The position numbers and the translations under genes were made by a program. Below the pieces are notes generated by a model. It was not told the DNA's origin. It worked only from the letters and a program-made list of their open reading frames with translations, and did no database searches. From an uncultured virus (IMG/VR IMGVR_UViG_3300031787_000080) (taxonomy: Duplodnaviria > Heunggongvirae > Uroviricota > Caudoviricetes): DNA of 20,000 nucleotides. The DNA lies in the IMG/VR virus record IMGVR_UViG_3300031787_000080, one strand, 5' to 3'. This document shows, in pieces, positions 180 through 19,440 of this stretch; the stretch's first letter is position 1; every line of letters begins with the position of its first letter.

Positions 180-224
180 TCAAAAAATCCCCTTAGTTCA
201 TGGTGCAAAAATCATATATTAAGG

Positions 225-536
225 GTGGACAAGCGAGAACCCAGTAACCTTTTTGACGCTTTTAGCATTTGTGCAGAAATTATTAAGCAAATGCTAGCAG
301 GACGTTCGACTGCCGAAATCATCGACAGCATTGACGTGAATGAAGAACATCTTGCCAACATTGCCGCCGACATGATTGTTGTTTGTGGGTTGAATAATGA
401 TTTGGCGATGGTTCTTAATGATGGAGAAACTTACACAAACATCTCAGGGTGTTCTATTCGGCAAATGACCGAAGAGTTTGACGAAGATGGGGAGTTCGTT
501 GAAGATACGTTCGGTGACCCTATCATCGTAATGTGA
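225..536 (+). CDS. hypothetical acidic protein (103 aa)
   Basis: GTG directly after motif A; terminator hairpin follows. Confidence 0.8.
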   Translation: MDKREPSNLFDAFSICAEIIKQMLAGRSTAEIIDSIDVNEEHLANIAADMIVVCGLNNDLAMVLNDGETYTNISGCSIRQMTEEFDEDGEFVEDTFGDPIIVM

Positions 537-554
537 GTAAATTGACAGGAAACT

Positions 555-582
555 AATCGGGGCAATGAAGCCCTGATTTTTT
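555..582 (+). terminator. intrinsic terminator
   Basis: AATCGGGGC-AATGAA-GCCCTGATT then a T-run that is also the start of motif B. Confidence 0.7.
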
Positions 583-659
583 ATAACTTTCTACGATTGT
601 GCGGCACGATCATTATAAAAATCCCCCTTATTAATCGGCTCAATTTACTATAATGATAT

Positions 660-998
660 ATGTACCACGTAGACGATTGCGTTATCGGAAAAGAAATTGC
701 AAGTCAGGCTGAATATCATATCAATGTTTATGACTATGACGTTCGGTTATGTTCCGATGGCTGTTGCATTGAGGCGCGGACGGCAGCTGAACTTTGGAGC
801 AACGACTGTAAAACTTTTCTAACCGAAGATGTGGATGGGTTTTGCAATAGTGGCGAGGCCGCTCAGAAGGTAATCAATTTGGCCAAGGCGCGTGGCCTCA
901 ATGTTCATCGAGGTAATACGGCGATCTATGTGGACGGCGATAGAGATTGTTCTAACGAATTGATTTACGGATTGAAAAAATTTCCCCTAGATTACTGA
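660..998 (+). CDS. hypothetical protein (112 aa)
   Basis: ATG just after motif B plus motif A. Confidence 0.8.
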   Translation: MYHVDDCVIGKEIASQAEYHINVYDYDVRLCSDGCCIEARTAAELWSNDCKTFLTEDVDGFCNSGEAAQKVINLAKARGLNVHRGNTAIYVDGDRDCSNELIYGLKKFPLDY

Positions 999-1022
999 GA
1001 CAAGAGGCATATATAAACTACC

Positions 1023-1763
1023 ATGACAATCGAACACGATAACATCGAAGAGCGAGTTGGAAAGGGAACTTTAATTCGTATTTCCAAGCTGCTTACCATG
1101 GCGAAGGATAAGCGCACGAACGAGAATGAAGCCCATAGCGCTATGCAATCGGCTCTTGCGCTTTTGTCTCGGTATAACATTACGGCTTCTGATGTTGAGA
1201 ATTCGGGCATTTTCGAGGAAGCAGTGGGTTCTGAATCTTTTAATCCAACTGAAAATCGAAATCACTCCACATGGCGATCCCAGCTAATCAATTCCATCGC
1301 AAGCACTCACTTCTGTCATGTCTATCGACGAAACGGGGGCGAGTTTATTCTGACTGGTAAGGAAACTAATCGTGCCGCCGCGATGATGCTTTTTCAGTAT
1401 CTTTCCGTCGTGATTGAAGAAAATGCCCTTCAGGCTGTCCGCGAATACGACGGATGGGAATCGAAAAAGACTTATGGCAATGCCTATCGGCTTGGAATGG
1501 TGACTCGAATTAATGAACGACTTATTGACCAAAAGCGCCAAATTATTCAAGAGGCTTCATCCAATAACACTGAAATTGTTGCTGTCAATCCTTATGAACA
1601 GGCCGAAAAAGAAAATCAAGCCTATGTCAAATCGAAGGGCGTAAAACTGTCGTCACACGCCTCAAGCAGTAATCTTGGAAGTGGCGCGGGTTGGCATCGA
1701 GGGCGCAAAGATGGCGAGCGCGTTGGGCTTACCGCTGGGCGAGCACTAGGATATAAAAAGTGA
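1023..1763 (+). CDS. DUF2786-domain protein
   Basis: N-terminal RISKLLTMAKD..TNENEAHSAMQSALALLSRYNI matches the DUF2786 pattern; C-terminal AYRLGMVTRINERL and GWHRGRKDG are typical of the family (recognised from memory). Confidence 0.8.
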   Translation: MTIEHDNIEERVGKGTLIRISKLLTMAKDKRTNENEAHSAMQSALALLSRYNITASDVENSGIFEEAVGSESFNPTENRNHSTWRSQLINSIASTHFCHVYRRNGGEFILTGKETNRAAAMMLFQYLSVVIEENALQAVREYDGWESKKTYGNAYRLGMVTRINERLIDQKRQIIQEASSNNTEIVAVNPYEQAEKENQAYVKSKGVKLSSHASSSNLGSGAGWHRGRKDGERVGLTAGRALGYKK

Positions 1764-2188
1764 GAGATACGCAAAAAGCCAAATTTTACAAATTCGAGGA
1801 CTATATCATCAAGCGATTCCTCCAAAAAGAACTACATGATGGACTTGAATTTCGAGAAATCGAAGGGCTTGTTGGAAGAATCTGCCATTCTTATAATGTC
1901 CGCCCGCCAAAGATAAAGGTCGGTCGGCAGAATTCGAGCAAAGCCTACTACAAAACGATTGACCATAGTATCACGCTTCCGCCATGGGCTCAGAGAACAT
2001 GGACGGTAGTCCATGAAACAGCTCATGCAATTACTTATGGGAAAGGATATAAGGACCCTGGGCACGATGGTGATTTTGTTGGAGTATGGGTAGAGCTTTT
2101 TTCAAGAATGTATGACATCCCCAAGGAAACTCTTGAGTCGGAAGTTAAGCTGGCGGGATTGAGATATGTCAAATTTTCCCCCAAATAA
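1760..2188 (+). CDS. zincin-type (HEXXH) metallohydrolase, SprT/TIGR04338-like
   Basis: ITLPPWA..WTVVHETAHAIT...PGHDGDFV motif; GTGA overlap with the DUF2786 gene. Confidence 0.8.
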   Translation: MRDTQKAKFYKFEDYIIKRFLQKELHDGLEFREIEGLVGRICHSYNVRPPKIKVGRQNSSKAYYKTIDHSITLPPWAQRTWTVVHETAHAITYGKGYKDPGHDGDFVGVWVELFSRMYDIPKETLESEVKLAGLRYVKFSPK

Positions 2189-2213
2189 ATCAGAAAGAAA
2201 TCATATATAAGAC

Positions 2214-2429: not shown

Positions 2430-2500
2430 TCCCGATCAGGCCATCTTCATAAAAATCCCTTATTTTTATCGTTTCGATTCGATATAAAAAGGGAGGCTAA

Positions 2501-2996: not shown

Positions 2997-3073
2997 ATGA
3001 CTTTCCGTGATTATGCGCCACGATCATTAAAAATCCCCTATATCTTATATTCCAATCGGATATATAAGATATA

Positions 3074-3503: not shown

Positions 3504-3577
3504 TCGGGGATCGTCTAGAGGCAGGACTCTGGTCTCTGGAACCAGAAGCGGTGGTTCGAATCCATCTCTCCGAGCCA
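3504..3577 (+). tRNA. tRNA-Gln(CTG)
   Basis: Acceptor TCGGGGA/TCTCCGA, anticodon arm CTGGT-CT-CTG-GA-ACCAG, T-loop TTCGAAT, G73, encoded CCA. Confidence 0.93.
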
Positions 3578-3584
3578 GCTTCAC

Positions 3585-3670
3585 TGGGTCTTAGGCGAAT
3601 TGGTAGAGCCGCCTGTCTTTGGAACAGGACTCCTGAAAAGGTGGAGGTTCGAATCCTCCCGACCCAGCCA
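3585..3670 (+). tRNA. tRNA-Gln(TTG) with atypical long variable arm
   Basis: Acceptor TGGGTC/GACCCA, anticodon arm CCTGT-CT-TTG-GA-ACAGG, variable region ACTCCTGAAAAGGT, T-arm GGAGG-TTCGAAT-CCTCC, GCCA end. Confidence 0.85.
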
Positions 3671-3742
3671 ATTAAAGGCTTTATGCATTTTGAAAAAATA
3701 ATTAAAAAAGGCTTTCTTAACAGAAGTACATAATTAAAACGA

Positions 3743-4528
3743 GTGATTCAAACTTCCAATAAGAAAACAAGAGTAAAGCGCAGTCGAATTTGGACGATGC
3801 CTAAAGACGAGTTCGCTCAACTAGTGGCCTCAAGTCAAACTTATGTCGAAATTCTCCGAGCCATTAACTACACCATACGAGGAGGAGCTTTTCGAATTTT
3901 AAAAGAACGAATTGCGACAGAAATGATCGACGATTCACATATATTAAAGAATGGAAGGCAAACCATTTATGCCCATAGATTCAATACTCGGTCAGATGAC
4001 GATATATTTTGCGAAAATTCTACATACAATAGTGGCCCTGCCCTGAAAAAGAGAATGATTAAGCTAGGCTTACCTGAAGAATGCACAAAATGTGGGCTTG
4101 GTGCAACATGGAATGATGAACCTCTATCTCTGCAAGTAGACCATATCAATGGGGTGCGCAACGATAACAGATTAGAGAATTTGAGGCTTCTGTGCCCAAA
4201 TTGTCATTCTCAAACCGAAAATTTTGCTGGCAGAAAGTTGAACGCAAAAAACAAATCATGTCCAGAATGCTGCGCTAAGATCAGTGGATACCGTAAAGAT
4301 CAGAGATGCCAATCTTGTGCCAATAAGATCAGGTCTAGAGAAATGCAACTAATATCAAAACCATCAAAAGACGAGCTTCAAGATATGTTGTGGAAAATGC
4401 CCGCGACTAGGATTGCTAAGATATACAATGTGTCCGATAAAACAGTTGGTAATTGGGCTAAATCCTACAAAATTGACAAACCGAGCCGTGGACACTGGGT
4501 CAAAAAAAATACTCCCCCCCCCTTGTAG
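3743..4528 (+). CDS. HNH homing endonuclease with C-terminal Zn-finger and HTH-like region
   Basis: CTKC...LQVDHINGVRNDNRLENLRLLCPNCHSQT HNH motif, CPEC..CQSC, ATRIAKIYNVSDKTVGNWAK; inserted between tRNA genes. Confidence 0.92.
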   Translation: MIQTSNKKTRVKRSRIWTMPKDEFAQLVASSQTYVEILRAINYTIRGGAFRILKERIATEMIDDSHILKNGRQTIYAHRFNTRSDDDIFCENSTYNSGPALKKRMIKLGLPEECTKCGLGATWNDEPLSLQVDHINGVRNDNRLENLRLLCPNCHSQTENFAGRKLNAKNKSCPECCAKISGYRKDQRCQSCANKIRSREMQLISKPSKDELQDMLWKMPATRIAKIYNVSDKTVGNWAKSYKIDKPSRGHWVKKNTPPPL

Positions 4529-4594
4529 CTTAATGGATAGAGCGCAGCACTTCGGATGCTGATGTTATGGGTTCGAGTCCTATCGAGGGGGCCA
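4519..4594 (+). tRNA. tRNA-Arg(TCG)
   Basis: CCCCTTG/CGAGGGG acceptor, CAGCA-CT-TCG-GA-TGCTG, TTCGAGT T-loop, GCCA; overlaps the HNH stop codon. Confidence 0.92.
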
Positions 4595-4605
4595 AAATTT
4601 AAAAC

Positions 4606-4681
4606 ACGCCTGTAGCTCAGTGGATAGAGCATCAGCTTGCGGAGCTGAGGGTCGGAGGTTCGAACCCTCTCAGGCGTGCCA
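4606..4681 (+). tRNA. tRNA-Arg(GCG)
   Basis: ACGCCTG/CAGGCGT acceptor, TCAGC-TT-GCG-GA-GCTGA, TTCGAAC T-loop, GCCA. Confidence 0.93.
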
Positions 4682-4687
4682 ATATAC

Positions 4688-4762
4688 GGCCACGTACCCA
4701 AATGGTTAAGGGCTCCCTCTGCAAAAGGGATGTTGCGAGTTCGATTCTCGCCGTGGCCTCCA
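4688..4762 (+). tRNA. tRNA-Cys(GCA)
   Basis: GGCCACG/CGTGGCC acceptor, TCCCT-CT-GCA-AA-AGGGA, U73, CCA. Confidence 0.93.
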
Positions 4763-4806
4763 AAAATCCCCTATATTTTTGTCACAATCGGATATATAGT
4801 TAGAGA

Positions 4807-5379: not shown

Positions 5380-5412
5380 AAAAATACCCCTGTCCACCAA
5401 GGGGTATTTTTT
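5380..5412 (+). terminator. intrinsic terminator
   Basis: AAAAATACCCCT-loop-AGGGGTATTTTT. Confidence 0.75.
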
Positions 5413-5492
5413 ATTACTTTCTACGATTATGGTTCACGATCATTATAAAAAATCCCCTGTTTTCGAGAAATCAAAACAATATATAAAATAGA

Positions 5493-5733: not shown

Positions 5734-6063
5734 ATGACCGCAAAACAAGCAAAAGAAATTCAACAAGAAGTCATTGTGAAGCAAAACAATGATAACGCAA
5801 GCATCATCGACAATCTTCTTGAAAAGGGTATTTTTAAGAAGATTGAAGACGCGGCTAGGGATGGTAGAAATTCAACTCGTATTGGGCGTCCTTACCACGA
5901 TACTGGTTTTGAAACTCCAGAATTCCGTTGTGGCGACTTTAGCCTAAATTATGTTTTGGGCTTCATTGACAACAATGCGATGCGCGAGATTATCATTCAA
6001 AAACTCAAAAACCTGGGATATACTGTGTCTGTTGAGGCCTCTAGTTTGATAATTGAGTGGTAA
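5734..6063 (+). CDS. hypothetical protein (109 aa, start revised to ATG 5734)
   Basis: MTAKQAKEIQ... begins 1 nt after the upstream stop; its TAA is the start of the next motif A. Confidence 0.75.
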   Translation: MTAKQAKEIQQEVIVKQNNDNASIIDNLLEKGIFKKIEDAARDGRNSTRIGRPYHDTGFETPEFRCGDFSLNYVLGFIDNNAMREIIIQKLKNLGYTVSVEASSLIIEW

Positions 6064-6111
6064 AAATCCTTTCTTTTCATTGATGCAATCGGATATATGA
6101 TTTAGGTCACG

Positions 6112-6396: not shown

Positions 6397-6466
6397 CCAA
6401 GAGTTTGTTGCAATATAATTATTTTTCACGACAAAATGATCGTGCCGCATAACCATAGAAAGTTAT

Positions 6467-6492
6467 AAAAAAGAAGGGGGCAGTGCCCCCTT
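6467..6492 (-). terminator. intrinsic terminator
   Basis: AAGGGGGCA/TGCCCCCTT stem; minus-strand U-tract merges with motif B. Confidence 0.65.
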
Positions 6493-7177: not shown

Positions 7178-7294
7178 GCTTTATATATCCGATTGTGCTA
7201 CGGCAGAAAGGGGATTTTTTATGACTTTCTAAGGTTATGTGCCACGATCATAAAAAATCCCTTGCTTTTTGTGTTTCAAGCGGATATATAAGAT

Positions 7295-7771: not shown

Positions 7772-7865
7772 TGCGACACTATATCATTTTTATGACTTTC
7801 TACGATTGTGTGGCACGATCATAAAAAATCCCCCTAATAAAGCTGAGTAATCGGATATATAATGT

Positions 7866-7945
7866 GGGGCAAATAGCTCAGTAAAGACATATGGGAATGT
7901 AACAGTAGAGGTTTCCGCGTATGTTCAAATCCTGTTGCTCCACCA
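7866..7945 (+). ncRNA. tRNA-like element or pseudo-tRNA
   Basis: GGGGCAA/TTGCTCC acceptor plus ACCA, TAGCTCAGT D-like start, GTTCAAATC T-loop-like; no recognisable anticodon arm. Sole content between two motif A copies. Confidence 0.6.
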
Positions 7946-7986
7946 AAAATCCCCTATATTTTCCGCGTTCATGCCATATATAAACT

Positions 7987-8578: not shown

Positions 8579-8663
8579 GAAAAAATCGAAAAATCGTGGC
8601 ACACAATCGCAGAAAGTCATAAAAAATCCCTTATCTTTGAGATTCTAATCGGATATATAAATT

Positions 8664-9075: not shown

Positions 9076-9152
9076 TAAGGGCAATTCGTTGAAAAGCGAA
9101 AAGTCCTTTTTTCACGCCTTAATGATCGTGCCGCACAATCGTAGAAAGTCAT

Positions 9153-9194: not shown

Positions 9195-10070
9195 TTAGGC
9201 CGTCGCCAGTTCTTTCTTTGCTTCCAGGCTCTTGGCCTTGCCTCGGCCCATAATGAAGTTTGCGGCTTTCCCCGCAAGTCCTGCGGCCTGCACGACCATT
9301 TTGGGGTCGTCATTCAGAACCTTGAGCCAGCCCTGAATATAGGCCTGGGTGTTCTCGGTGTCATTGTCGATGCCGATTTCTTGGCAGAGAAAGGCGGCTG
9401 TGAGTTCTGCTACCAGTTCCTCGCGGCTGTAACCTTCCTTGTCAAGCGTTGAGATTTGCATGACTTCGGGTCGAGCCAATCGGGATTCGTGGCCCGTCGC
9501 GTGACCAAGTTCATGGAATAAGGTCGCGTAATAGGCTTCGGAACTGACAAAAGATTCGATAATAGGCATTTGGACCCAATCGCCATAAGGCGAATAACAG
9601 GCACGATTTCCACCGTGACGAATCTCAGGCACCAGCGGCATTTCTTGGACCACTTCCTCACAACGTTCGATGCGGCGATTGTCTTTCAGTTCCTCAATCG
9701 GCGGCAGGTCGAGCCCTTCGGTTTGCTCCACATTGAAAACATAAAATTGCTTCAATACGGGGTAGGAACCTGTCTTGCCAGTCTTATCATCCTCATAACT
9801 CACCTGCTTCCAGAACACAATCGGTGTGCCCTTCTCGCCCTTCTTGATTCGCCCGCCCATCTTGTTGATTTGATTGCAAGTCATCCAGCGCGGGTCGGCA
9901 AAGGTAGACATTGACAAAAGCAGAAGGTTGAGCCCGCTATACTTGGTTCCGCTACTGGGGTTGCAGGGTCGAATCACCGACCAGGGTCGCTTCCAAGCAA
10001 CGTTTCCGCTCTTTAGGCCCTCGATGATGGTGTTGGTTACGATTTCGTAGACTTCGGACTTCTTCTTCAT
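9195..10070 (-). CDS. ardC: ArdC-family ssDNA-binding antirestriction protein (DUF1738 plus zincin-like domain)
   Basis: VYEIVTNTII..L..G..AWKRPW, YSGLNLLLL, RWMT..Q..KMGGRIKKGEKG, VFNVEQTEGL, YYATLFHELGHATGHESRLAR, YSREELVAEL, AYIQGWLKVL. Confidence 0.93.
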   Translation of the reverse strand: MKKKSEVYEIVTNTIIEGLKSGNVAWKRPWSVIRPCNPSSGTKYSGLNLLLLSMSTFADPRWMTCNQINKMGGRIKKGEKGTPIVFWKQVSYEDDKTGKTGSYPVLKQFYVFNVEQTEGLDLPPIEELKDNRRIERCEEVVQEMPLVPEIRHGGNRACYSPYGDWVQMPIIESFVSSEAYYATLFHELGHATGHESRLARPEVMQISTLDKEGYSREELVAELTAAFLCQEIGIDNDTENTQAYIQGWLKVLNDDPKMVVQAAGLAGKAANFIMGRGKAKSLEAKKELATA

Positions 10071-10247
10071 TAGTCTGCCTCTCTTTATATATCCGATTAG
10101 ACTACGATAGAAAGGGGATTTTTTATGGCTTTCTGAGATTATGGGCCACGATCATTAAAAATCCCCTTTTCAAGTAAATTCATATAATATAATAGAAAGA
10201 AAGGCAAAATTCGCCCGAATTAAATATCGGATTAATGAAGCGAACAC

Positions 10248-10763: not shown

Positions 10764-10804
10764 AAAATCCCCTATATCTTTTCATCACAAAAGATATAAC
10801 AAGT

Positions 10805-11078: not shown

Positions 11079-11136
11079 ATAACTTTCCATGATTATGGGC
11101 CACGATCATTAAAAATGGAAACAAAAAAATGAGACC

Positions 11137-11528: not shown

Positions 11529-11617
11529 ACTTTATATATCCGATTAGACCACGAAAAACAAGGGATTTTTCAATAATCGTGACACATAATCTCAGAAAGT
11601 TATAAAAAATCCGCTTC

Positions 11618-12058: not shown

Positions 12059-12098
12059 ACTTTATATATCCGATTAGGCCATGAAAAACAAGGGATTT

Positions 12099-12443
12099 TT
12101 ATCGAACCCAGTGAATTGCCACGGTTCGCTCACCCTGTTGAAGCCCCAGCCCGTGAACACTTGGCTTGCTTACAGCAATTTCACGCGCTTCCTCGAAAGT
12201 CTTAGTTACTAGGTCGCCAGTCAAATCATAAATGGCACTCCACGCTTCTGCATCTTGCTCAGACGCGAAAGTAGCCAAAAGACCAACCGTCATAGGGTCT
12301 GGCGCAGGAGTCGTTGCATTTACAGCCGCAAAACGACCACTACCAAGTGAAATCATCACTACAGCATCGGGGAAAGATTCATCCCCGCCAAGAACATCAT
12401 TGACTTCAATGTCCAAATCACTCAGAATATCTTCGAGGGGCAC
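12099..12443 (-). CDS. hypothetical acidic protein (114 aa)
   Basis: GTG 3 nt after motif A; stop TAA is the start of the next motif A. Confidence 0.8.
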   Translation of the reverse strand: MPLEDILSDLDIEVNDVLGGDESFPDAVVMISLGSGRFAAVNATTPAPDPMTVGLLATFASEQDAEAWSAIYDLTGDLVTKTFEEAREIAVSKPSVHGLGLQQGERTVAIHWVR

Positions 12444-12525
12444 CCTTTATATATCCGATTAGAACAAGAAAAACAAGGGATTTTTATGACTTTCTACAAT
12501 CATGTGCCACACCCAAAGAACACAC

Positions 12526-12692: not shown

Positions 12693-12811
12693 TCTTTATA
12701 TATCCGATTAGAGCCATGCAAAAAGGGGATTTTTTATATAATGATCGTATCACATAATCTCGGAAAGTCATAAAGAAAGGCCCCATTTTAGGGGCCTTGT
12801 TTTCTTAGACG

Positions 12812-12982: not shown

Positions 12983-13117
12983 TACCCTCCTTTTTATATA
13001 TCCGATTGAAACCATTCAAAAAGGGGATTTTTATAATGATCGTGGCGCATAATCGCAGAAAGTTATAAAGAAAGGGGCATTAGCCCCTAGTCTTTACTTA
13101 TGCCCCAGAAGGCAACT

Positions 13118-13312: not shown

Positions 13313-13352
13313 TCTTTATATATCCGATTAGAACACGAAAGAAAAGGGATTT

Positions 13353-13748
13353 TTATGAAGCCCACTCGAAGCGATTCCGCTCAATATGATTCTGAAACAC
13401 GCGGACAACGGCATCAATGTCCGTGAGTTTTTCATACTCCATATGAGTGTTGAGGCCACCACGGTAGTCCTTTTGCCCCTTAACGCATCGATAGTAGAAC
13501 TCAGGTCGCGGAATGCTTCCACCCAGGTGAACATAAAGATTGTCCGAGTGCAAAATCACTTCACCAAGACAAGCCACGCCAGCCTTGTTTGAGCGAATAG
13601 AATACTGCCCGTCTCTCAGGCCAAGACCGTGAGCAATTTCTTCAAGATACTGCTTTGCAAGACGATGAAAAGTTCGCTTAGCCCTATCATTATAGCCACT
13701 ATGGGTGGAAGCGATATGAGCCATCATCCTAATGTCTTTAACGTCCAT
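13353..13748 (-). CDS. conserved-looking hypothetical protein (131 aa)
   Basis: KRTFH..AK..L...GLGL..GQYSIRSNKAG...GEVILH.D.LYV...YR...GQKDY.GG.N; motif A plus SD. Confidence 0.85.
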   Translation of the reverse strand: MDVKDIRMMAHIASTHSGYNDRAKRTFHRLAKQYLEEIAHGLGLRDGQYSIRSNKAGVACLGEVILHSDNLYVHLGGSIPRPEFYYRCVKGQKDYRGGLNTHMEYEKLTDIDAVVRVFQNHIERNRFEWAS

Positions 13749-13879
13749 GGTTTGTTCCTACATTATATATCTGATTGAAATACAAAAGAAAAGGGATTTT
13801 TTATAATGATCGTGGCGCATAATCTCAGAAAGTTATAAAGAAAGCCCCGTTTTCAGGGGCATTTCTTTGAAGTCAGTTA

Positions 13880-14341: not shown

Positions 14342-14444
14342 GATTGTTTTCCTCTCCTTATATATCAGATTGGGCTACGAAAGAAAGAGGATTTTTTATG
14401 ACTTTCTGCGATTGTGTGACACAATTCAATGCAAGCCAAATATA

Positions 14445-14658
14445 AACAAAATCCCTGGCCACGGAGCCTCATGCTCATGCGCGACCAGGGTGCCGTCAGT
14501 TTTTGGATAATCTCTATACTGTTTGCAACCAATATAGAACCACGTAATCGCGTCCTGAGACTGACCGTTGCATTTTCACGCTCTGCAACTAGAGGGGAAG
14601 CGGATACTCTTTGGTGTGCAGTCCACTTCTCAGCACTAGCGAGGTTGAGGCCTCGTTC
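14445..14658 (-). ncRNA. candidate multi-hairpin RNA (motif A unit with no start-bearing long ORF)
   Basis: Stems CGAGG/CCTCG, GAAGTGGA/TCCGCTTC, GTTGCA/TGCAAC, CTATATTG/CAGTATAG, TCAGT/ACTGA and CCCTGGTCGCG/CGTGGCCAGGG followed by ATTTTGTTT. Confidence 0.5.
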
Positions 14659-14746
14659 TTCTTATATATCCGATTAGGCCAATGTAAAAAGGGGATTGTT
14701 TATAAAAAAACCCCCGCATTTTCAAACACAATCGGATATATAAAAT

Positions 14747-15145
14747 ATGACCGAAGTCTTTGGACAGACCACAGTCGCCGAGGCACTGCACTCGTCAGTT
14801 CACGAAGTCGCAAATCTCATTCTTGACAAAGGTTACCAAATCTTTACAGCTGACTGCCGCCCCGACATTCACTTCGCATGGCCCAATCGTGACTTTTACT
14901 TCACTGACGGGAAGCGCGTTGGATATTGCCAGTATGACAATCTCAATGGACTTGTATTTTGTCAAGTGTTGAAGGGTCATGGGTTTGGGAATGTCTACGA
15001 TTATAAAAGCCCCCTGAGCGATTTAGTAGAAAAGACCCTAAACGAAATGCATGAACGACAATATCAAGACTTTGCAGAGTTTTTGGAATACAGAAAGCAA
15101 ATTGGTGTACTGTATGAAGTGAAGTCTTTTGAAGTGAAGTTGTAA
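14747..15145 (+). CDS. hypothetical protein (132 aa)
   Basis: ATG 3 nt after motif A; terminator at about 15142-15182. Confidence 0.8.
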   Translation: MTEVFGQTTVAEALHSSVHEVANLILDKGYQIFTADCRPDIHFAWPNRDFYFTDGKRVGYCQYDNLNGLVFCQVLKGHGFGNVYDYKSPLSDLVEKTLNEMHERQYQDFAEFLEYRKQIGVLYEVKSFEVKL

Positions 15146-15242
15146 ATCTCAGGGGCAAAATAAGCCCTTGATATTTACTTTTATAACCAAAATGATCGTG
15201 CCACACAATCGTAGAAAGTTATAAAAAAGACTAGGGCAAGCC

Positions 15243-15431
15243 CTAGTCCAAATCCTCAAGAAGTTCAGCGTCGCCTTCATCCATCTCGTTGTCAGAATAC
15301 CATCGAGAAAATGGGATACTGGCTTTGAAATCTTCCCATGCTTGCCCCAATTCATCTGCTGAATTTACAGAGAATGATGCCGTATAAGCGGCACTACTGT
15401 CTTTATCACAAGCCCGAAAGATTCCAGTCAT
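15243..15431 (-). CDS. small acidic protein (62 aa)
   Basis: ATG 3 nt after motif A; terminator GACTAGGGC-AA-GCCCTAGTC at 15229-15248. Confidence 0.75.
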   Translation of the reverse strand: MTGIFRACDKDSSAAYTASFSVNSADELGQAWEDFKASIPFSRWYSDNEMDEGDAELLEDLD

Positions 15432-15471
15432 GCCTTATATATCCGATTGGGACAAAACAAACGGGGGATTT

Positions 15472-15867
15472 TTAGATTTGACTCTCTCGAACAGGAATCC
15501 AGTTCTTTTGACGTTCAACTCTTTGGCCAAACTTACCAACCGTGGAAATCAACTCACGAAGTGAAGCGTATCCCTTCTCTCGCTCATTGCCCTCGACAAT
15601 CCCGTAAAACAGGAAGTCATGAGCCTCGGACTGGCGGGCAGTCGAATCTTCGGGGTGAATCATCACACCATTTTCGTCCACGGGGCTGCCCTCGATTATA
15701 AACCATCGCCAAGTAGGAGCAACAAAGAACAGTTTCAAAACCACCATCGGATTCGGATTCGAGTCTTGAGAGTAGAGCGGAGGAAGAATGTCCAAAATCT
15801 CATCGGGGAGCAAGTGAGAAGCCTGCTTCATGAGTTCAGAGTAGGAAAGTTCAGCGGTGGTGGACAT
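15472..15867 (-). CDS. DUF2958-family protein
   Basis: LPPLYSQD...VVLKLF....WRWFIIE...FYGIVEG.ERE.GY.SL.EL.......VER...W.P pattern. Confidence 0.75.
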   Translation of the reverse strand: MSTTAELSYSELMKQASHLLPDEILDILPPLYSQDSNPNPMVVLKLFFVAPTWRWFIIEGSPVDENGVMIHPEDSTARQSEAHDFLFYGIVEGNEREKGYASLRELISTVGKFGQRVERQKNWIPVRESQI

Positions 15868-15922
15868 TTTCTGTTAACCTCTGTCTTATATATCCGATTA
15901 GAATACGAAAGAAAGGGGTTTT

Positions 15923-16147
15923 TTATAATGAGCTTGGCCTATACTCACGGACCACAGGTGCATCATAGACATCGTTGGAAATGTCACTCTGAAGGTCACC
16001 ACAATCCATTATTTTGCTGCACTTATCAAAAAAAGATTTATCAATGCTTTCACCAAGAAGTTCAGCACACAAAGCCGCGACCTGAAAGTTGTATTCGCTC
16101 GGAACACCAGATTCAGCCATGAGCTTTAGGTTTCGCATTTTATCCAT
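15923..16147 (-). CDS. hypothetical protein (74 aa)
   Basis: ATG 4 nt after motif A; stop overlaps the next motif A. Confidence 0.75.
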   Translation of the reverse strand: MDKMRNLKLMAESGVPSEYNFQVAALCAELLGESIDKSFFDKCSKIMDCGDLQSDISNDVYDAPVVREYRPSSL

Positions 16148-16307
16148 ATTTTCATATATCCGATTAGAACACGAAAAACAAGGGTTTTTTTATAATGATC
16201 GTGTCACACAATCGTAGAAAGCCATAAAGAAAAAGACCCGTCCATCCATGACGGGCCTTTCTTCCTCTTCTTTTTGTACTTGTATTTTTTTATTCTGGAT
16301 TTTTGAT

Positions 16308-16515
16308 AGAGTGTGACTTGGGAAACCCAAACAAGATACAAATGAAAATGGTTAATTACTCCATCCTCATAATCTCTTGCATCTGATATACGCCCATCGT
16401 ATACTTCGACACCGCTAAGTTTCAAGACAACGCGCCCGCCTTGCAAGGGACTCGAACCCAAGCTTCGATGTTAAACGTTTCTCAGATTGTGAAACTTAAT
16501 TCACTATCACACTCT
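16308..16515 (-). ncRNA. candidate ~208-nt structured RNA with T-loop arm
   Basis: 10-bp closing stem AGAGTGTGAT/GTCACACTCT; TAAGTTTCA/TGAAACTTA encloses GGG-TTCGAGT-CCC; TATACG/CGTATA; AGATGCAA/TTGTATCT with inner ATGAGGATGG/CCATTTTCAT; TTGGG/CCCAA. Terminator at about 16226-16262. Confidence 0.6.
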
Positions 16516-16623
16516 TCTTTATATATCCGATTAGAGCCATGCAAAAAGGGGATTTTTTAATGATCGTGGCGCACAATCGTAGAAAGTCATAAAAAAGACG
16601 GATGCTCATATTGAGCATCCAAT

Positions 16624-16824
16624 TTAGAGTCTGCGGTATACCGTTACCCCATTGCGATTATGAGACTTCATATAGCCTAGATTTTCCAGTTTTTCAAGTC
16701 TCTCAGCCAAAATCACATCATCAAAAGACACTTTAAGGGACAATTGATAGAGCGTTTTTCGCTCGTTGGTGCCACCGAATTGTCTCAGAATGGCATGGTC
16801 GTATGCGGTCAGATTCTTATCCAT
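16624..16824 (-). CDS. small winged-helix-like protein (66 aa)
   Basis: LTAYDHAILRQF....TLYQLSLKV....LAERLEKLENLGYMKS......VYR resembles a wHTH; terminator at about 16591-16620. Confidence 0.6.
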   Translation of the reverse strand: MDKNLTAYDHAILRQFGGTNERKTLYQLSLKVSFDDVILAERLEKLENLGYMKSHNRNGVTVYRRL

Positions 16825-17042
16825 TAGGACACTCGCTCAAGCCGAATCACACCCGCATCATCGAGTTGCATAAGTGCTGGGCAAACGACGTAAGACCTAT
16901 TGCAGTAATAGCCGTCAGCAGGAAATGCAACACAATCCCCATGAACATCATGGTTTTGTTCGCGCCAAGGCATCATATCCATGCCTTTCAGAAGTTCCTT
17001 GATGGCTTGCTTGAGAATGTCATTTTCTTCTTGAACCGTCAT
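16824..17042 (-). CDS. hypothetical protein (72 aa)
   Basis: ATG 3 nt after motif A; TAATG overlap with the next gene. Confidence 0.75.
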   Translation of the reverse strand: MTVQEENDILKQAIKELLKGMDMMPWREQNHDVHGDCVAFPADGYYCNRSYVVCPALMQLDDAGVIRLERVS

Positions 17043-17100
17043 ATCTTATATATCCGATTAGACCACGAAAGAAAGGGGATTTTTAATCAACGGCGTAAAC

Positions 17101-17138
17101 AGAAAAGTTTAGCCCCAACAAATAATTGTTGGGGCTAA
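17101..17138 (-). terminator. strong intrinsic terminator
   Basis: TTAGCCCCAACAA/TTGTTGGGGCTAA perfect stem; minus-strand ACTTTTCT tail. Confidence 0.75.
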
Positions 17139-17394
17139 CGACATGCCTATCTTGTCTTGGTTTTTGAGTTTTCAGTTACACTTTCTTTCTCATGCTGGTA
17201 AGGTTCGTCCAGCTACTATAAGGGCTACAGGGCCTGGTCATCGAGCACAATCTGAGTCTCGCGCTTTCCTCAGTCTTGTTACTTTATATATCCGATTAGA
17301 GCCATGCAAAAAGGGGATTTTTTAATGATCGTGCCACATGATCACGGAAAGTCATAAAGAAAGACAGATAACTTGTATCTGCCTTTCCAAGTTT

Positions 17395-17799
17395 TCAATC
17401 CCCGATGGAGTAGTATTGTTTGAACACCACTACTTGAATGTTCGCCATTATGCAGTGAACAGAAATGTCCCCGCCCTGCCATGCATTGCCAATGTCATAA
17501 AGAACATTTGCAAGTTCGGAGTTTTCAAGCCCAGCCGTGGTGAAGAGATTGTATCTGACCGCACTGTAAGACGCATTGCCCCAGGCCTCTTCAACATTTT
17601 GGATTCGATTGAACGCATTGTCGCTTGAAATGTCAATCCAAAGCCGCTCTCCATTTGACAAATCGGCGATATAGTATTCTCCCCGATTGGTTACAACCTT
17701 GCGAATGGCATGATTCAGAAAGTGTTCGCCCGACCGCGTGGGAAGGATTTTTTCAGGCTGAGTAGGATACTCGGCTGTGATTGTGGGGACTTTGATCAT
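17395..17799 (-). CDS. hypothetical protein (134 aa)
   Basis: Motif A, SD-like AGGTGG, ATG; terminator at about 17356-17386. Confidence 0.8.
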   Translation of the reverse strand: MIKVPTITAEYPTQPEKILPTRSGEHFLNHAIRKVVTNRGEYYIADLSNGERLWIDISSDNAFNRIQNVEEAWGNASYSAVRYNLFTTAGLENSELANVLYDIGNAWQGGDISVHCIMANIQVVVFKQYYSIGD

Positions 17800-17941
17800 C
17801 TTGACTTTCCACCTAGTTTATATATCCGATTAGAATACAAAAGACAAGGGATTTTTTTAATGATCGTGCCACATAAAAACAGAAAGCCATAAAAAATCCC
17901 CTTTCTGCATGGCTCCAATCGAATATATAAAGAGAGGAACA

Positions 17942-18424
17942 ATGACTACTGAACAAGTCGCCGCCGCCCTCGCCACCAAGCGCAAGGGAACAATATTCAC
18001 CCTTCGCGTTGCACGTCCCGCCAAACTTCGCGCTGGTTCGCGAGATATGGATATTGTCAAGGCTTCCGTTATGCAAGGCATGGCGAACACTGACTATGCC
18101 AGCCGTGGCCCCGTTCGCGAAGCCGTGGCCCTGGGAGAACGTGATGCCCCTGCCCTGCCCAAGCATATTGAAAAGACATTCACGGAAAACGACGTGAAGT
18201 TTTGGAAAGGCCACAATGGCGAAATCTACTTGCCCGTTTGCCTTACGGGGAATCATGCCGAAGTCACCTGGCTTCAGGATGGCGAGGAAGTCAGCCTGGA
18301 CGAAATCAAGGACCATCTGCTTGCTTCCGAATATGCAAGCCGCACCGATAAGGATGACCTTGCAGAACGCGGCCAAGTGCCCTTTATCGGCGTAAATGTC
18401 AAGCACATCGAATCGGTAAACTAA
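17942..18424 (+). CDS. hypothetical protein (160 aa, start revised to ATG 17942)
   Basis: Motif A, SD GAGAGG, MTTEQVAAALATKRKG...; terminator at about 18442-18463. Confidence 0.85.
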   Translation: MTTEQVAAALATKRKGTIFTLRVARPAKLRAGSRDMDIVKASVMQGMANTDYASRGPVREAVALGERDAPALPKHIEKTFTENDVKFWKGHNGEIYLPVCLTGNHAEVTWLQDGEEVSLDEIKDHLLASEYASRTDKDDLAERGQVPFIGVNVKHIESVN

Positions 18425-18539
18425 GCCAGACCATAAAGACTAGGGGCGCAAGCCCCTTTCTTTATAACTTTCTATGATTGTGTGCCACGATCATTATAAA
18501 AATCCCCTTTCTTTTGTGTTCTAATCGGATATATAAAAC

Positions 18540-18647
18540 ATGAACAAAGGATTTACGCTCCCAGAACTTGTTTTCCTCATGCTTGGAGTTATTATCTTTG
18601 TCATCTTGACCCTTGCTGCTATTTACATCGGGATGCGAGTCTTTTGA
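18540..18647 (+). CDS. 35-aa prepilin-type N-terminal cleavage/methylation peptide (minimal pilin-like; not in ORF track)
   Basis: MNKG^FTLPELVFLMLGVIIFVILTLAAIYIGMRVF; ATG 3 nt after a consensus motif A; TGATG overlap with the next gene. Confidence 0.75.
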   Translation: MNKGFTLPELVFLMLGVIIFVILTLAAIYIGMRVF

Positions 18648-18973
18648 TGCCAGAAGTTATCAATGCAGAAAAATGGCTAAAGGCACCCAATAGACAGGGT
18701 AAATGGCTTTGCCTGACCGTGGGCTTCCAAAATTACGACCCACAAACAATCCGAGATTACGATGTCAATAATGAACGTGATGGCGCAAGGGTGGTCAAAG
18801 CCGATTTCATCTACGTCCATTGGGCATATGACCAAAAGACCAAATCAAAGATTTTGCTCCAGGTGTATGCACCGTTCACTTCCCGATGCCCGTCTATGCC
18901 ACTGCCCGAAGATACCGATGCGGTAAAGTATTTCTATATCGGGCCTTTTGAACTTCCTTTTGACCAGCGATAA
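18647..18973 (+). CDS. hypothetical protein (108 aa)
   Basis: Coupled to the upstream peptide; stop overlaps the next motif A. Confidence 0.75.
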   Translation: MPEVINAEKWLKAPNRQGKWLCLTVGFQNYDPQTIRDYDVNNERDGARVVKADFIYVHWAYDQKTKSKILLQVYAPFTSRCPSMPLPEDTDAVKYFYIGPFELPFDQR

Positions 18974-19013
18974 AAATCCCCTGTATTTTCAAACACAATC
19001 GGATATATAAGAT

Positions 19014-19184
19014 ATGCAGAACGTAGAAGGAACAAACACCTGGGTGGGCGAGACTGTGCCAATGCAGTTCGGACGCATGGCTGATGAATGTGGCGAACCG
19101 ATTGACCATACCGCTGTCACTATCGTTGTCCCCGATTGCCTTGAACACAAAAATGTTCGCATCACCATTGAAGTCATTGAATGA
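19014..19184 (+). CDS. small acidic protein (56 aa, not in ORF track)
   Basis: MQNVEGTNTWVGETVPMQFGRMADECGEPIDHTAVTIVVPDCLEHKNVRITIEVIE; ATG 3 nt after motif A. Confidence 0.75.
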   Translation: MQNVEGTNTWVGETVPMQFGRMADECGEPIDHTAVTIVVPDCLEHKNVRITIEVIE

Positions 19185-19440
19185 TGGGCAGGCAGTGACC
19201 ACAATAAAAATCCCCCGTTTCTTATAAGGCAAAACCATATATAAGAGGAGGGGGCAAAAACCCCTACCCACATCCGACCACCAAGACCCTGTACCACGAT
19301 CAACAACGATGATGATTATGATCGGGCACCCATGTGTCATGATCGCTGCTATAGTAGAGGGGGGGGTACTAAAACTTTTAGGTACCATAAGGAAGCGGTA
19401 CGCCACCCCGTCATTTTTTCGATCATGCCAAAAAAATGGC

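What the first reader, a model, noticed from the sequence alone, without database searches (positions are those of the whole stretch)
182..19244. A 19-kb array of self-contained single-gene cassettes delimited by two conserved repeats (candidate shuffling or capture system)
Seen: nearly every unit has the layout [motif A]-[one or two unrelated small genes or an RNA]-[hairpin terminator]-[motif B]. There are 39 A copies and 22 B copies, and unit orientation flips repeatedly. Cargo is heterogeneous while the flanks are near-identical. Established analogies are integron cassette arrays and the promoter/stem-loop (PeSL) cassettes implicated in modular shuffling in T4-type phages, but these motifs are neither attC sites nor sigma70-consensus early promoters. 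Inference: this is an exchangeable library of early or anti-defence genes whose units are gained, lost or inverted by recombination at the repeats. No recombinase is visible in the window.
Basis: partly seen in the sequence, partly recalled or inferred. Interest (0 to 1): 0.88.

Follow-up and report, generated by a model that had tools for sequence, protein, structure and literature searches.

The report
Leaderless promoter-terminator cassettes, giant phage
The two repeats are most likely the start and stop signals of about forty tiny one-gene transcription units in the early-gene region of a giant uncultured phage, built so that each message begins at its own start codon; there is no sign of a dedicated gene-shuffling machine.

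Summary
The window has 39 motif A copies (33 strong, 6 variants), 22 motif B copies and three times the chance number of terminator hairpins.

Motif A (A5-TCCCC, 15 variable nt, AATCGGATATATAA) behaves as a promoter:
- 67 of 69 genome-wide hits lie in the first 60 kb of a 379-kb phage contig, against 0 hits in a reversed-sequence control.
- Every hit points at the next gene or RNA.
- In 38 of 69 hits an ATG or GTG sits exactly 4 nt after the motif, on an always-purine position. This predicts leaderless mRNAs and explains why nearly every gene has its own promoter.
- A distant relative (terminase 53% identical) has a different upstream box but the same design.

Motif B is an imperfect dyad fixed to the terminator T-run, 54-64 nt upstream of the predicted starts. 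It is not a conserved hairpin. I read it as a binding site for an unknown regulator.

No tyrosine or serine recombinase was found. Three near-identical sister contigs are collinear. The region is still very plastic compared with the distant relative, and the 80-nt B+A module has sharp homology edges.

Closest known kind: PeSL promoter/stem-loop cassettes of T4-type phages. This is a leaderless, non-sigma70-consensus variant. This scan has noted similar arrays in other phage DNA.

The parts
183..221 (+). motif A (21.8 bits); GTG at 225 on predicted +1
583..613 (+). motif B after hairpin 555-578
617..656 (+). motif A variant (A5-TCCCCC ... TACTATAAT); ATG at 660
   Evidence: read
979..1016 (+). 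motif A variant; ATG at 1023 (DUF2786/DUF7168 gene 1023-1763)
2171..2210 (+). motif A variant overlapping the end of ORF 1760-2188; ATG at 2214
   Evidence: read
2451..2489 (+). motif A (35.2 bits); short leader that begins with GAGG; ATG at 2501
2997..3027 (+). motif B after hairpin 2971-2988
3029..3067 (+). motif A (50.7 bits); ATG at 3074
3504..4762 (+). five tRNA genes (Gln x2, Arg x2, Cys) around an HNH endonuclease gene (3743-4528)
4763..4799 (+). motif A variant (span one nt shorter), directly after tRNA-Cys; ATG at 4807
5413..5443 (+). motif B after hairpin 5380-5411
5448..5486 (+). motif A (34.9 bits); ATG at 5493
6062..6100 (+). motif A (32.2 bits); ATG at 6112
6436..6466 (-). motif B without A, after hairpin 6474-6492, at a convergent junction
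7181..7219 (-). motif A (52.1 bits); ATG of GP88-like gene 6491-7177 on predicted +1
7221..7251 (+). motif B between divergent A copies
7253..7291 (+). motif A (45.8 bits); ATG at 7295 on +1
7792..7822 (+). motif B
7824..7862 (+). motif A (31.7 bits) in front of a non-coding stretch 7866-7944 with tRNA-like ends
7945..7983 (+). motif A (31.6 bits); ATG at 7987 on +1
8590..8620 (-). motif B in reverse orientation between a + strand terminator and the next A(+)
8622..8660 (+). motif A (51.0 bits); ATG at 8664 on +1; tandem paralogues 8664-8876 and 8878-9075
9122..9152 (-). motif B without A, next to two-way hairpin 9160-9173, at a convergent junction
9195..10070 (-). ArdC-like anti-restriction / zincin gene, SD-led from A at 10085-10123
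10085..10123 (-). motif A (54.2 bits)
10125..10155 (+). motif B between divergent promoters
10157..10193 (+). motif A variant in front of a non-coding element with a paralogue at contig 26,415-26,700
10391..10429 (+). motif A (47.7 bits) with a leader of about 120 nt before ATG 10551
10764..10801 (+). motif A variant; ATG at 10805
11079..11109 (+). motif B without A, after hairpin 11057-11075, at a convergent junction
11532..11570 (-). motif A (55.5 bits); GTG at 11528 on +1
11573..11603 (-). motif B
12062..12100 (-). motif A (54.3 bits); GTG at 12058 on +1
12447..12485 (-). motif A (54.7 bits); GTG at 12443 on +1
12486..12516 (+). motif B, degenerate right half, reverse to A(-)
12696..12734 (-). 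motif A (53.9 bits) in front of a non-coding stretch 12500-12692
12741..12771 (-). motif B after hairpin 12777-12798
12994..13032 (-). motif A (50.2 bits); leader begins with GGAGGG; ATG at 12982
13036..13066 (-). motif B after hairpin 13073-13088
13316..13354 (-). motif A (55.4 bits); GTG at 13312 on +1
13763..13801 (-). motif A (44.8 bits); SD-led
13806..13836 (-). motif B after hairpin 13844-13860
14358..14396 (-). motif A (47.4 bits); SD-led
14398..14428 (+). motif B variant, reverse to A(-)
14662..14700 (-). motif A (47.7 bits) in front of a non-coding stretch 14430-14658
14705..14743 (+). motif A (39.7 bits); ATG at 14747 on +1
15192..15222 (-). motif B without A, after hairpin 15228-15249, at a convergent junction
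15435..15473 (-). motif A (53.6 bits); ATG at 15431 on +1
15886..15924 (-). motif A (52.7 bits); SD-led
16152..16190 (-). motif A (46.8 bits); ATG 1 nt after +1
16195..16225 (-). motif B after hairpin 16237-16255
16519..16557 (-). motif A (53.9 bits) in front of a mostly non-coding stretch 16230-16515
16560..16590 (-). motif B after hairpin 16599-16621
17046..17084 (-). motif A (57.4 bits); ATG at 17042 on +1; two coupled genes 16824-17042 and 16624-16824
17284..17322 (-). motif A (53.9 bits) in front of a non-coding stretch that ends at hairpin 17109-17138
17325..17355 (-). motif B
17818..17856 (-). motif A (54.9 bits)
17860..17890 (-). motif B between divergent A copies
17892..17930 (+). motif A (49.5 bits); leader begins with GAGG; ATG at 17942
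18464..18494 (+). motif B after hairpin 18442-18457
18498..18536 (+). motif A (58.0 bits, best in the contig); ATG at 18540 on +1
18972..19010 (+). motif A (48.2 bits); ATG at 19014 on +1
19206..19244 (+). last motif A of the array (34.7 bits), pointing into a non-coding repeat block
19300..19760 (.). non-coding block with three 24-nt direct repeats and about seven CGATCAT words (the right half of motif B) plus G-run elements; it marks the end of the array
   Evidence: (D13)

Best explanation
The window is the distal third of the early or host-takeover region of a giant uncultured phage. The region is more than 60 kb long.

Motif A is a phage promoter. It has an A-tract plus TCCCC box about 33-42 nt upstream of the start, a 15-nt variable stretch of fixed length, and an extended -10-like block AATCGGATATATAA. 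Transcription is predicted to start at the invariant purine 4 nt after the motif. In more than half of the units that purine is the A or G of the start codon, so the mRNA is leaderless. In about ten others a Shine-Dalgarno sequence begins at the very 5' end.

A leaderless gene can only be translated from the 5' end of its own transcript. Each gene, or each translationally coupled pair, therefore needs its own promoter. In the window each unit is also closed by an intrinsic terminator. This produces the look of self-contained cassettes.

Motif B is a second DNA-level signal. It is fixed to the terminator T-run and lies 54-64 nt upstream of the start sites on one or both sides. Most likely it is the operator of an unknown dimeric regulator that co-controls this subset of promoters.

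The 80-nt B+A modules are long and similar enough for general homologous recombination (the phage has a UvsX-like recombinase). They probably help gene turnover as a by-product, as PeSLs do.

Shown by sequence: motif statistics, orientation, spacing, terminators, module edges, and the same design in a relative. Inferred: the start site, early timing, which polymerase or sigma factor reads A, the B-binding protein, and any recombination.
For: 1. Distribution. 69 weight-matrix hits against 0 in the reversed-sequence control. 67 of 69 lie at contig 1,974-59,777. All hits up to 47.7 kb but one (12,261, on the - strand) are on the + strand, matching the gene strand there.

2. Spacing. The position 4 nt after the motif is A or G in 49 of 49 seeds. 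In 38 of 69 hits an ATG (31) or GTG (7) opening at least 30 codons sits exactly there. Seven more lie within 1-3 nt. Ten have a short leader with an SD-like word. Six have no ORF, or lead into a tRNA or a non-coding stretch.

3. Packing. In the compact 2-40 kb part the A-tract commonly holds the previous gene's TAA stop, so the motif fills the whole intergenic gap.

4. Terminators are enriched threefold.

5. The relative G001 (terminase 53% identical) lacks motif A. It has 97 copies of TTCCAGGTTTAAC (control 14), 91 on one strand and 77 in its first 70 kb. In 56 of 97 a start codon lies exactly 20 nt after the box, that is 4 nt after TATAAT.

6. Three sigma-70-family proteins are found, and no match to the RNA polymerase beta-subunit family PF00562. 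The search for T7-type polymerase was uninformative.

7. Gene content. rIIA, rIIB, ArdC-like, Macro, HNH and tRNA genes lie in the array.

8. Motif B. It has 86% column identity. Its dyad centre lies 54-59 nt upstream of the start in 13 same-orientation cases and 63-64 nt in 6 opposite-orientation cases. There are no compensatory changes, and its fold energies are at shuffle level.

9. Module identity is 0.80 in both B and A, falling to 0.50-0.54 (random 0.51) on both sides.
Against: - No transcript data could be laid on the sequence, so the start site, the timing and leaderless translation are all untested.
- The -10-like block does not fit TATAAT or TANNNT well. If the start is the start-codon purine, the gap after TATATA is only 4 nt, which is short for sigma70-type enzymes.
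- The TCCCC box lies 2-5 nt further upstream than a canonical -35. The reading enzyme or factor is therefore unknown.
- Four B copies stand without any A at convergent junctions. This fits an upstream operator poorly and suggests that B belongs with the terminator.
- The spacing between B and A varies by up to 5 nt in the same-orientation cases.
- The host is unknown.
Confidence: 0.72

Rival explanations
1. PeSL-type mobile regulatory cassettes. The repeats are promoters and terminators, and in addition homologous recombination between them is a main driver of gain, loss, duplication and inversion of the one-gene units, including excised mini-circles. This does not exclude the best explanation.
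For: - The composite hairpin, A/T-tract and promoter layout matches the PeSL description (passages of PMC2839356; abstract of PMC4122927).
- The B+A module is 80% identical, with repeats up to 105 nt at 86%, in both orientations.
- Homology stops sharply at the start site and at the T-run.
- Promoter subfamilies cut across cargo: 63 pairs share at least 14 of 16 positions, against 17.2 (maximum 29) in column shuffles. The 16-nt slice starts at the T of TCCCC.
- Three copies (12696, 16519, 17284) share an identical variable stretch but have unrelated downstream sequence.
- Eight paralogue pairs occur within the early region, five of them between neighbouring genes.
- Only 8 of 113 early-region ORFs have a G001 homologue, against 96 of 301 elsewhere. 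Their order is scrambled and two genes are inverted.
- A UvsX-like recombinase and a RusA-like resolvase are present.
Against: - Two sister contigs are collinear with the contig over 61-64 kb. Their only differences are point changes and four 1-nt gaps at contig 100-1,255 and 39,134-39,158, away from the motifs. A third sister contig (10.6 kb) was compared only at its two ends, which match at 100%.
- No relative at a useful distance was found, so no breakpoint could be mapped.
- Similarity of the variable stretch correlates only weakly with distance (Spearman -0.06, permutation p 0.065).
- Subfamilies could also be functional classes.
Confidence: 0.4
2. A dedicated capture or shuffling system in the integron sense. 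A and B would be sites for a site-specific recombinase that excises, inserts or inverts cassettes.
For: Flanks are near-identical around unrelated cargo, orientation flips repeatedly, and B has dyad symmetry.
Against: - No match to Phage_integrase (PF00589) or Resolvase (PF00239) in six frames of the contig. Controls ring in 14 of 14 and 12 of 14 genomes.
- Pfam and PHROG scans of 341 further ORFs found no recombinase apart from two TnpB-type transposase-like genes far from the array. Twenty-three large ORFs and ten that span locus borders were not scanned as proteins.
- B does not fold better than shuffles and shows 0 compensatory pairs.
- A is always co-oriented with the next gene, with fixed spacing to the start codon.
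- Each unit carries its own promoter, unlike integron cassettes.
Confidence: 0.04
3. Motif B is itself a promoter of a second time class, read by one of the phage's ECF-like sigma factors. GACTTT would be the -35 and CGATCA the -10, 16 nt apart. The same genes would then get a leadered transcript later in infection.
For: - The two most conserved blocks of B (ACTTTC and CACGATCAT) are separated by a fixed 15-16 nt.
- The phage encodes three sigma-70-family proteins, two with region 4 matches of ECF type.
- The T-run just upstream could act as an upstream element.
- The match to ECF-type promoters is recalled, not tested.
Against: - B works in both orientations relative to A (13 same, 6 opposite).
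- Four copies point into convergent terminators or the antisense of neighbouring genes.
- The stretch between the two blocks is also conserved as a dyad.
- Almost no B-like sites lie outside the early region (27 of 29 filtered hits below 61 kb), so B is not a general middle or late promoter.
Confidence: 0.12
4. Motif B acts as RNA or single-stranded DNA, as a hairpin for processing, termination support or attC-like folding.
For: An imperfect 9-3-9 inverted repeat sits next to terminators.
Against: - 0 of 9 pairs show a change on both sides.
- 13 of 22 copies have an A.C clash mid-stem and 16 of 22 a clash at the second pair.
- The paired fraction equals that of the shuffles (81.3% against 81.7%).
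- DNA folds reach only -1.7 to -2.7 kcal/mol, with z-scores 0 to -1.0.
Confidence: 0.04

Closest known systems
PeSLs (promoter-early stem-loops) of T4-type phages (Arbiol et al. 2010, PMC2839356, passages read; Comeau et al. 2014, PMC4122927, abstract and outline read)
   Same: Both are small composite units of a terminator stem-loop, an A/T-rich tract and an early promoter. Both are repeated between single orphan genes in hyperplastic regions. In both, the repeats are long enough for homologous exchange.
   Different: - The promoter is not the sigma70 consensus (TCCCC box; GATATATAA).
- The start codon sits on the predicted start site, so the units are leaderless. PeSL crossovers were mapped between a Shine-Dalgarno box and the -10 box, so PeSL genes are leadered.
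- An extra conserved 31-nt dyad (B) lies between stem-loop and promoter.
- The scale is larger: at least 67 copies over about 58 kb in one block, with at least 8 more in a sister contig.
- The phage is about 380 kb with a DnaE-type polymerase.
- Recombination at the repeats is not shown here.
Leaderless transcription units, such as lambda cI from PRM and many actinobacterial genes (review PMC9031893, passages read)
   Same: The start codon is at or within 3 nt of the predicted 5' end, there is no Shine-Dalgarno sequence, and the spacing to the -10-like element is fixed.
   Different: Here it is a whole regulon of about 45 phage genes behind one repeated promoter, conserved as a design in a distant relative. 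It is untested by RNA data. phiKZ showed no leaderless transcript (PMC8244752, passage read), and AR9 5' UTRs are 26-491 nt (PMC5312081, passage read).
Integron cassette arrays (attC, IntI, Pc)
   Same: Rows of unrelated single genes separated by a recurring element with inverted-repeat character.
   Different: There is no integrase. The repeats do not fold. Each unit has its own promoter and terminator. Orientation is mixed. The repeat is tied to the start codon.
Stoperators of cluster A mycobacteriophages
   Same: Many copies of one protein-binding site lie at gene ends throughout a block of phage genes, next to points where transcription stops.
   Different: Stoperators are short asymmetric sites for the immunity repressor of temperate phages. 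B is a 31-nt dyad in an apparently lytic giant phage, and no binding protein is known.

Membership tests
PeSL cassettes of T4-type phages | Composite intergenic unit: stem-loop terminator, A/T-rich tract, early promoter | tested here: met
   Hairpin, T-run, B, A-tract and promoter appear in that order in 13 same-orientation units. Terminators number 60 against 20.5 expected.
PeSL cassettes of T4-type phages | Promoter matches the host sigma70 consensus | tested here: not met
   The sigma70-type scan is not enriched (38 against 36.6 +/- 5.6). The conserved upstream block is A5-TCCCC, placed further upstream than a -35. The host is unknown, so its own consensus could not be compared.
PeSL cassettes of T4-type phages | Concentrated in hyperplastic regions rich in orphan genes | tested here: met
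   5 of 43 window ORFs match Pfam. 8 of 113 early-region ORFs have a G001 homologue, against 96 of 301 elsewhere.
PeSL cassettes of T4-type phages | Indel and replacement breakpoints between close relatives fall in the repeats | tested here: inconclusive
   Two sister contigs (99.87% and 99.98% identical) are collinear. The third was seen only at its two ends, both 100% identical. The next relative is too distant and has another motif.
PeSL cassettes of T4-type phages | Mini-circles formed by exchange between neighbouring repeats | not testable with these tools
   No sequencing run was listed for this DNA.
Integron cassette array | IntI-type tyrosine recombinase next to the array | tested here: not met
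   PF00589: 0 matches in six frames of the contig, with controls ringing in 14 of 14 genomes. The contig is cut at its left end, so a gene beyond it cannot be excluded.
Integron cassette array | attC: imperfect inverted repeat that folds as single-stranded DNA | tested here: not met
   B folds at -1.7 to -2.7 kcal/mol, z 0 to -1.0. 0 compensatory pairs.
Integron cassette array | Promoterless cassettes in one orientation behind a common promoter | tested here: not met
   Each unit has its own motif A, and orientation changes eight times.
Leaderless mRNA genes | Start codon at or within a few nt of the transcript's 5' end, no Shine-Dalgarno sequence | tested here: inconclusive
   Sequence geometry fits: 38 of 69 starts are exactly on the invariant purine and 7 more lie within 3 nt. 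No RNA data were available to place the 5' end.

The most novel reading that the evidence does not exclude
One phage-specific DNA-binding factor may recognise the CGATC-type words found in three places: in motif B, beside the promoter boxes, and clustered in the repeat block that ends the array. The relative G001 uses CACAATCTG in the same three places and scattered through its whole genome.

Together with the phage's own IF3 homologue, this would give a two-level switch for a leaderless early regulon. The factor would gate or shut off some 20 promoters at once. Extra IF3, which is known to inhibit leaderless translation, would silence the remaining early messages.

The terminal repeat block would act as a boundary, either an origin of replication or an injection stop as in T5.
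Probability: 0.15. Interest if true: 0.75.

Novelty: new variant of a known kind. Interest (0 to 1): 0.5.

Why it matters
If the start sites are confirmed, this giant phage runs some 45 early genes as leaderless one-gene messages from a single non-consensus promoter type. A distant relative keeps the design, with a different upstream box. phiKZ and AR9, the giant phages whose start sites have been mapped, show no such design.

This gives a simple reason for one-promoter-per-gene arrays: a leaderless gene must sit at the 5' end of its own RNA. It also gives a ready consensus for annotating true start codons of orphan genes in this clade.

The finding offers three testable handles: an unknown factor that reads the TCCCC box, an unknown protein that binds B, and a phage IF3 that could control leaderless translation.

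For genome evolution, it extends the PeSL idea of regulatory repeats as recombination joints beyond T4-type phages. Here that remains only a possibility.

Tried and rejected
- RNA evidence: no RNA holder was listed for window 10000-19300, so no reads were laid.
- Rfam at E up to 1: only the five tRNAs and three sub-threshold chance matches. Nothing at the A-driven non-coding stretches.
- Megablast of the window against phage records: no match.
- Exact motif A and motif B patterns in IMG/VR: 0 stretches each.
- Motif A pattern in GTDB genomes: 4 single matches in unrelated bacteria, about what chance gives by my own estimate.
- Motif A pattern in metagenome contigs: only this contig, three near-identical sister contigs and five short pieces.
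- Records behind the sister contigs are not held for whole-record searches.
- ArdC-like protein in IMG/VR: no relative.
- rIIB in IMG/VR: 80 loci at 44% identity or less. None has a comparably dense repeat; the top 11-mer count is at most 11 per roughly 20 kb.
- G001 searched with motif A: 8 hits against 6 for the control.
- K-mer enrichment outside the early region of this contig: nothing stands out.
- A CGAT-type word just upstream of A copies that lack B looked enriched by eye, but my slice was offset by 5 nt. I give it little weight.
- Relaxed ARAGORN gave only noise and did not call 7866-7944.
- The attC or hairpin reading of B was rejected.
- Earlier notes of this scan by place and by relatives: nothing.
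- No structure prediction, complex prediction or large protein-database search was run, because none bears on the repeats.

Full report
**Setting.** The window is bases 40,530-60,529 of a single 378,848-bp virus contig. CheckV rates the contig complete, but it has no end repeats.

PHROG and Pfam scans of my own ORF calls (414 ORFs) show a giant tailed phage. Of the 108 ORFs of at least 300 aa, 85 were scanned. The 256 smaller ORFs that lie outside the window and within one locus were also scanned. The scans found:
- rIIA and rIIB, a DnaE-type polymerase, DnaB-like helicase and primase;
- a UvsX-like recombinase, RecJ-like and SbcC-like nucleases, and RusA;
- ribonucleotide reductase, topoisomerase II, large terminase and portal;
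- PhoH, GroEL, RtcB and a tRNA nucleotidyltransferase;
- two TnpB-type transposase-like genes;
- three sigma-70-family proteins (contig 109,410; 112,485; 302,715);
- a homologue of translation initiation factor IF3 (107,548-108,123).

There is no match to the RNA polymerase beta family PF00562. The search for T7-type polymerase was uninformative, because its control rang nowhere.

**The observation.** The repeat finder reports at least 60 direct-repeat families and 384 inverted pairs, up to 105 nt at 86%. They resolve into two motifs.

*Motif A* spans 39 nt: A5-TCCCC(T), a T-rich then variable stretch of fixed length, then AATCGGATATATAA.
- A matrix from 49 seeds gives 69 hits of at least 20 bits in the contig and none in the reversed sequence.
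- 33 hits are in the window.

*Motif B* has the core ATRACTTTC-NN-GATTRTG-NNN-CACGATCAT.
- There are 22 copies in the window and 27 in the first 61 kb.

Terminator-like hairpins number 60, against 20.5 +/- 5.3 in shuffles. Sigma70-type sites are at chance level (38 against 36.6). Cargo is mostly orphan: 5 of 43 ORFs match Pfam and 9 of 43 match a PHROG, with two named functions, HNH endonuclease and ArdC-like anti-restriction. Five tRNA genes lie in the array.

**What motif A is.**
- *Position.* 67 of 69 hits lie at contig 1,974-59,777. All hits up to 47.7 kb but one (12,261, on the - strand) are on the + strand, as are the genes there. A sister contig that reaches 38 kb further left carries eight more copies, all on the + strand, in the 7.1 kb that I hold. 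The contig therefore starts inside the array.
- *Orientation.* Every hit points at the next gene, tRNA or non-coding stretch.
- *Spacing.* The base 4 nt after the motif is a purine in 49 of 49 seeds. In 38 of 69 hits that purine is the first base of an ATG (31) or GTG (7) that opens at least 30 codons. Seven more starts lie 1-3 nt further on. About ten units have an 8-15-nt leader that begins with GAGG or GGAGG. Six units have no ORF.
- *Packing.* In the compact 2-40 kb part the A-tract commonly contains the previous gene's TAA stop.

This is the geometry of a promoter whose start site is the start codon, that is, leaderless mRNA. It also explains the cassette look. A gene without a ribosome-binding leader must be at the 5' end of its own RNA, so each gene or translationally coupled pair needs its own promoter.

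Which enzyme reads A is open. The -10-like block fits TATAAT poorly, and the TCCCC box lies a few nt further upstream than a canonical -35.

**A relative with the same design.** The large terminase finds a 347-kb IMG/VR record (G001) at 53% identity.
- 104 of 414 ORFs of this contig have a tblastn match there. The replication and structural core is syntenic.
- G001 has no motif A: 8 hits against 6 for the control.
- It carries 97 copies of TTCCAGGTTTAAC (control 14), 91 on one strand and 77 in its first 70 kb. In 56 of 97 a start codon lies exactly 20 nt after the box, that is 4 nt after TATAAT. Terminator hairpins lie just upstream.

The one-leaderless-promoter-per-gene design is therefore conserved while the upstream box differs. 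That is what one expects of a transcription signal co-evolving with its reader.

**What motif B is.**
- Its left edge is fixed to a T-run. The T-run is either a terminator tail or the reverse of a divergent A-tract.
- Its dyad centre lies 54-59 nt upstream of the predicted start in 13 same-orientation cases and 63-64 nt in 6 opposite-orientation cases.
- Four copies stand without A at convergent junctions.
- The 9-3-9 inverted repeat shows no compensatory change. 13 of 22 copies have an A.C clash mid-stem, and the paired fraction equals that of the shuffles.
- Single-stranded DNA folds are no better than shuffles.

B is therefore a duplex-DNA signal. Most likely it is an operator for a dimeric regulator of this subset of promoters. 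A second, sigma-specific promoter is a weaker alternative, because B works in both orientations.

The right-half word CGATCAT recurs about seven times in the non-coding block at 19,300-19,760, into which the last A copy points. G001 has an analogous promoter followed by a G-run and iteron block at 68.2-68.5 kb, built from its own over-represented word CACAATCTG.

**Shuffling.** Against a dedicated system:
- There is no tyrosine or serine recombinase in six frames.
- Every unit has its own promoter.
- B does not fold.

Against recent rearrangement:
- Two sister contigs match contig 1-64,539 and 3,004-64,539 at 99.87% and 99.98% without rearrangement.
- Their differences are 82 differing alignment columns (78 mismatches and four 1-nt gaps) at 100-1,255, and 10 point changes at 39,134-39,158. 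None is at a motif.
- A third sister contig (10.6 kb) was matched only at its two ends, at 100%.

For a PeSL-like by-product role:
- In 78 pairs of 13 units, identity is 0.80 in B and 0.80 in A. It falls to 0.50-0.54 on both sides, where random 40-mers give 0.51.
- Promoter subfamilies cut across cargo: 63 near-identical pairs against 17.2 expected, over a 16-nt slice that starts at the T of TCCCC.
- Eight paralogue pairs occur within the early region, five of them between neighbouring genes.
- Only 8 of 113 early-region ORFs have a G001 homologue, against 96 of 301 elsewhere. Their order is scrambled and two are inverted.
- One shared gene (window 8209-8526) is SD-led here but sits behind a leaderless promoter in G001.

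No relative at a useful distance was found, so breakpoints could not be mapped.

**Comparison with what is known.** PeSLs of T4-type phages are composite stem-loop, A/T-tract and sigma70-like early promoter units. They flank orphan genes in hyperplastic regions and have been shown to recombine and form mini-circles (PMC2839356, passages; PMC4122927, abstract). This array matches in layout and setting. It differs in four ways:
- a non-consensus promoter;
- the predicted start site on the start codon;
- the extra B dyad;
- its scale, in a phage of about 380 kb.

In phiKZ no leaderless transcript was found (PMC8244752, passage). AR9 5' UTRs are 26-491 nt (PMC5312081, passage). Two library searches for leaderless early promoters in T4-like or jumbo phages returned only those two papers.

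Earlier notes of this scan describe leaderless promoter-cassette arrays in several other uncultured phages, including a giant one. These are unchecked leads. They do mean that the scan has seen this kind before on other DNA.

**Verdict.** This is a real and very regular early-gene promoter/terminator cassette array, a new variant of a known kind. It is of moderate interest for four reasons: the predicted leaderless regulon, the unknown readers of A and B, the phage IF3, and the still-open PeSL-type plasticity. Excess IF3 inhibits leaderless translation in E. coli (PMC9031893, passages).

Noticed in passing
contig 107,548-108,123 (L006:7548-8123, +), outside the window: A phage-encoded homologue of translation initiation factor IF3 (IF3_N 1.2e-24, IF3_C 1.2e-21). 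It is also present in the distant relative G001. Excess IF3 is reported to inhibit leaderless mRNA translation, so it might switch off the early regulon.
   Followed up: partly
window 19300-19760: A non-coding block right after the last motif A copy. It has three 24-nt direct repeats (CCCGATAGTTTTCCCGATCATAAC type), about seven CGATCAT words and three G-run elements. G001 has an analogous last-promoter plus G-run and iteron block at 68.2-68.5 kb. It may be an origin or a boundary element.
   Followed up: partly
window 10190-10400 and contig 26,460-26,650 (L002:6460-6650): Two paralogous non-coding elements of about 170-200 nt behind variant A promoters. Their ends are conserved and complementary (TTCGCC ... 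GGCGAA) and their middle is variable. No Rfam match.
   Followed up: partly
window 7866-7944 (+): An A-driven 80-nt stretch with tRNA-like ends (a 7-bp acceptor-like pairing and a 3' CCA) and a GTTCAAATCC T-loop-like word. Neither ARAGORN nor the Rfam tRNA model calls it.
   Followed up: partly
window 12500-12692 (-), 14430-14658 (-), 16230-16515 (-), 17100-17280 (-): Four further A-driven stretches of 170-290 nt without a convincing ORF. One contains a GGTTCGAGTCC T-arm-like word. They are candidate phage small RNAs.
   Followed up: no
G001 (L090-L091), 14.4-33 kb: About 65 tandem mini-genes that all begin ATGATTAATACAGATTGTGTGG (MINTDCVE...) and are rich in CAGGTGTGG repeats. This is a large paralogous family in the relative's early region.
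   Followed up: no
G001, whole record: The 9-mer CAGATTGTG / CACAATCTG occurs 142 + 100 times, about 2-7 per 20 kb on each strand outside the early region and inside genes. By my base-composition estimate about 1 is expected per strand in the whole record. No comparable word stands out in this contig.
   Followed up: partly
contig 1-1,255 and the sister contig (L051, first 7,121 bases): The sister contig extends 38 kb to the left of this contig's first base. The 7.1 kb I hold has no match in this contig except a 76% identical TnpB-like gene. The first 1.25 kb of this contig is about 7% diverged from the sister and the rest is identical. The contig is probably cut at its left end despite the 100% completeness estimate.
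   Followed up: partly
contig 18,581-20,239 and 33,445-33,830: In five motif A copies the variable stretch carries GGGGGATTTT, the complement of the A5-TCCCC box. The promoter then contains a complete terminator-like hairpin.
   Followed up: no
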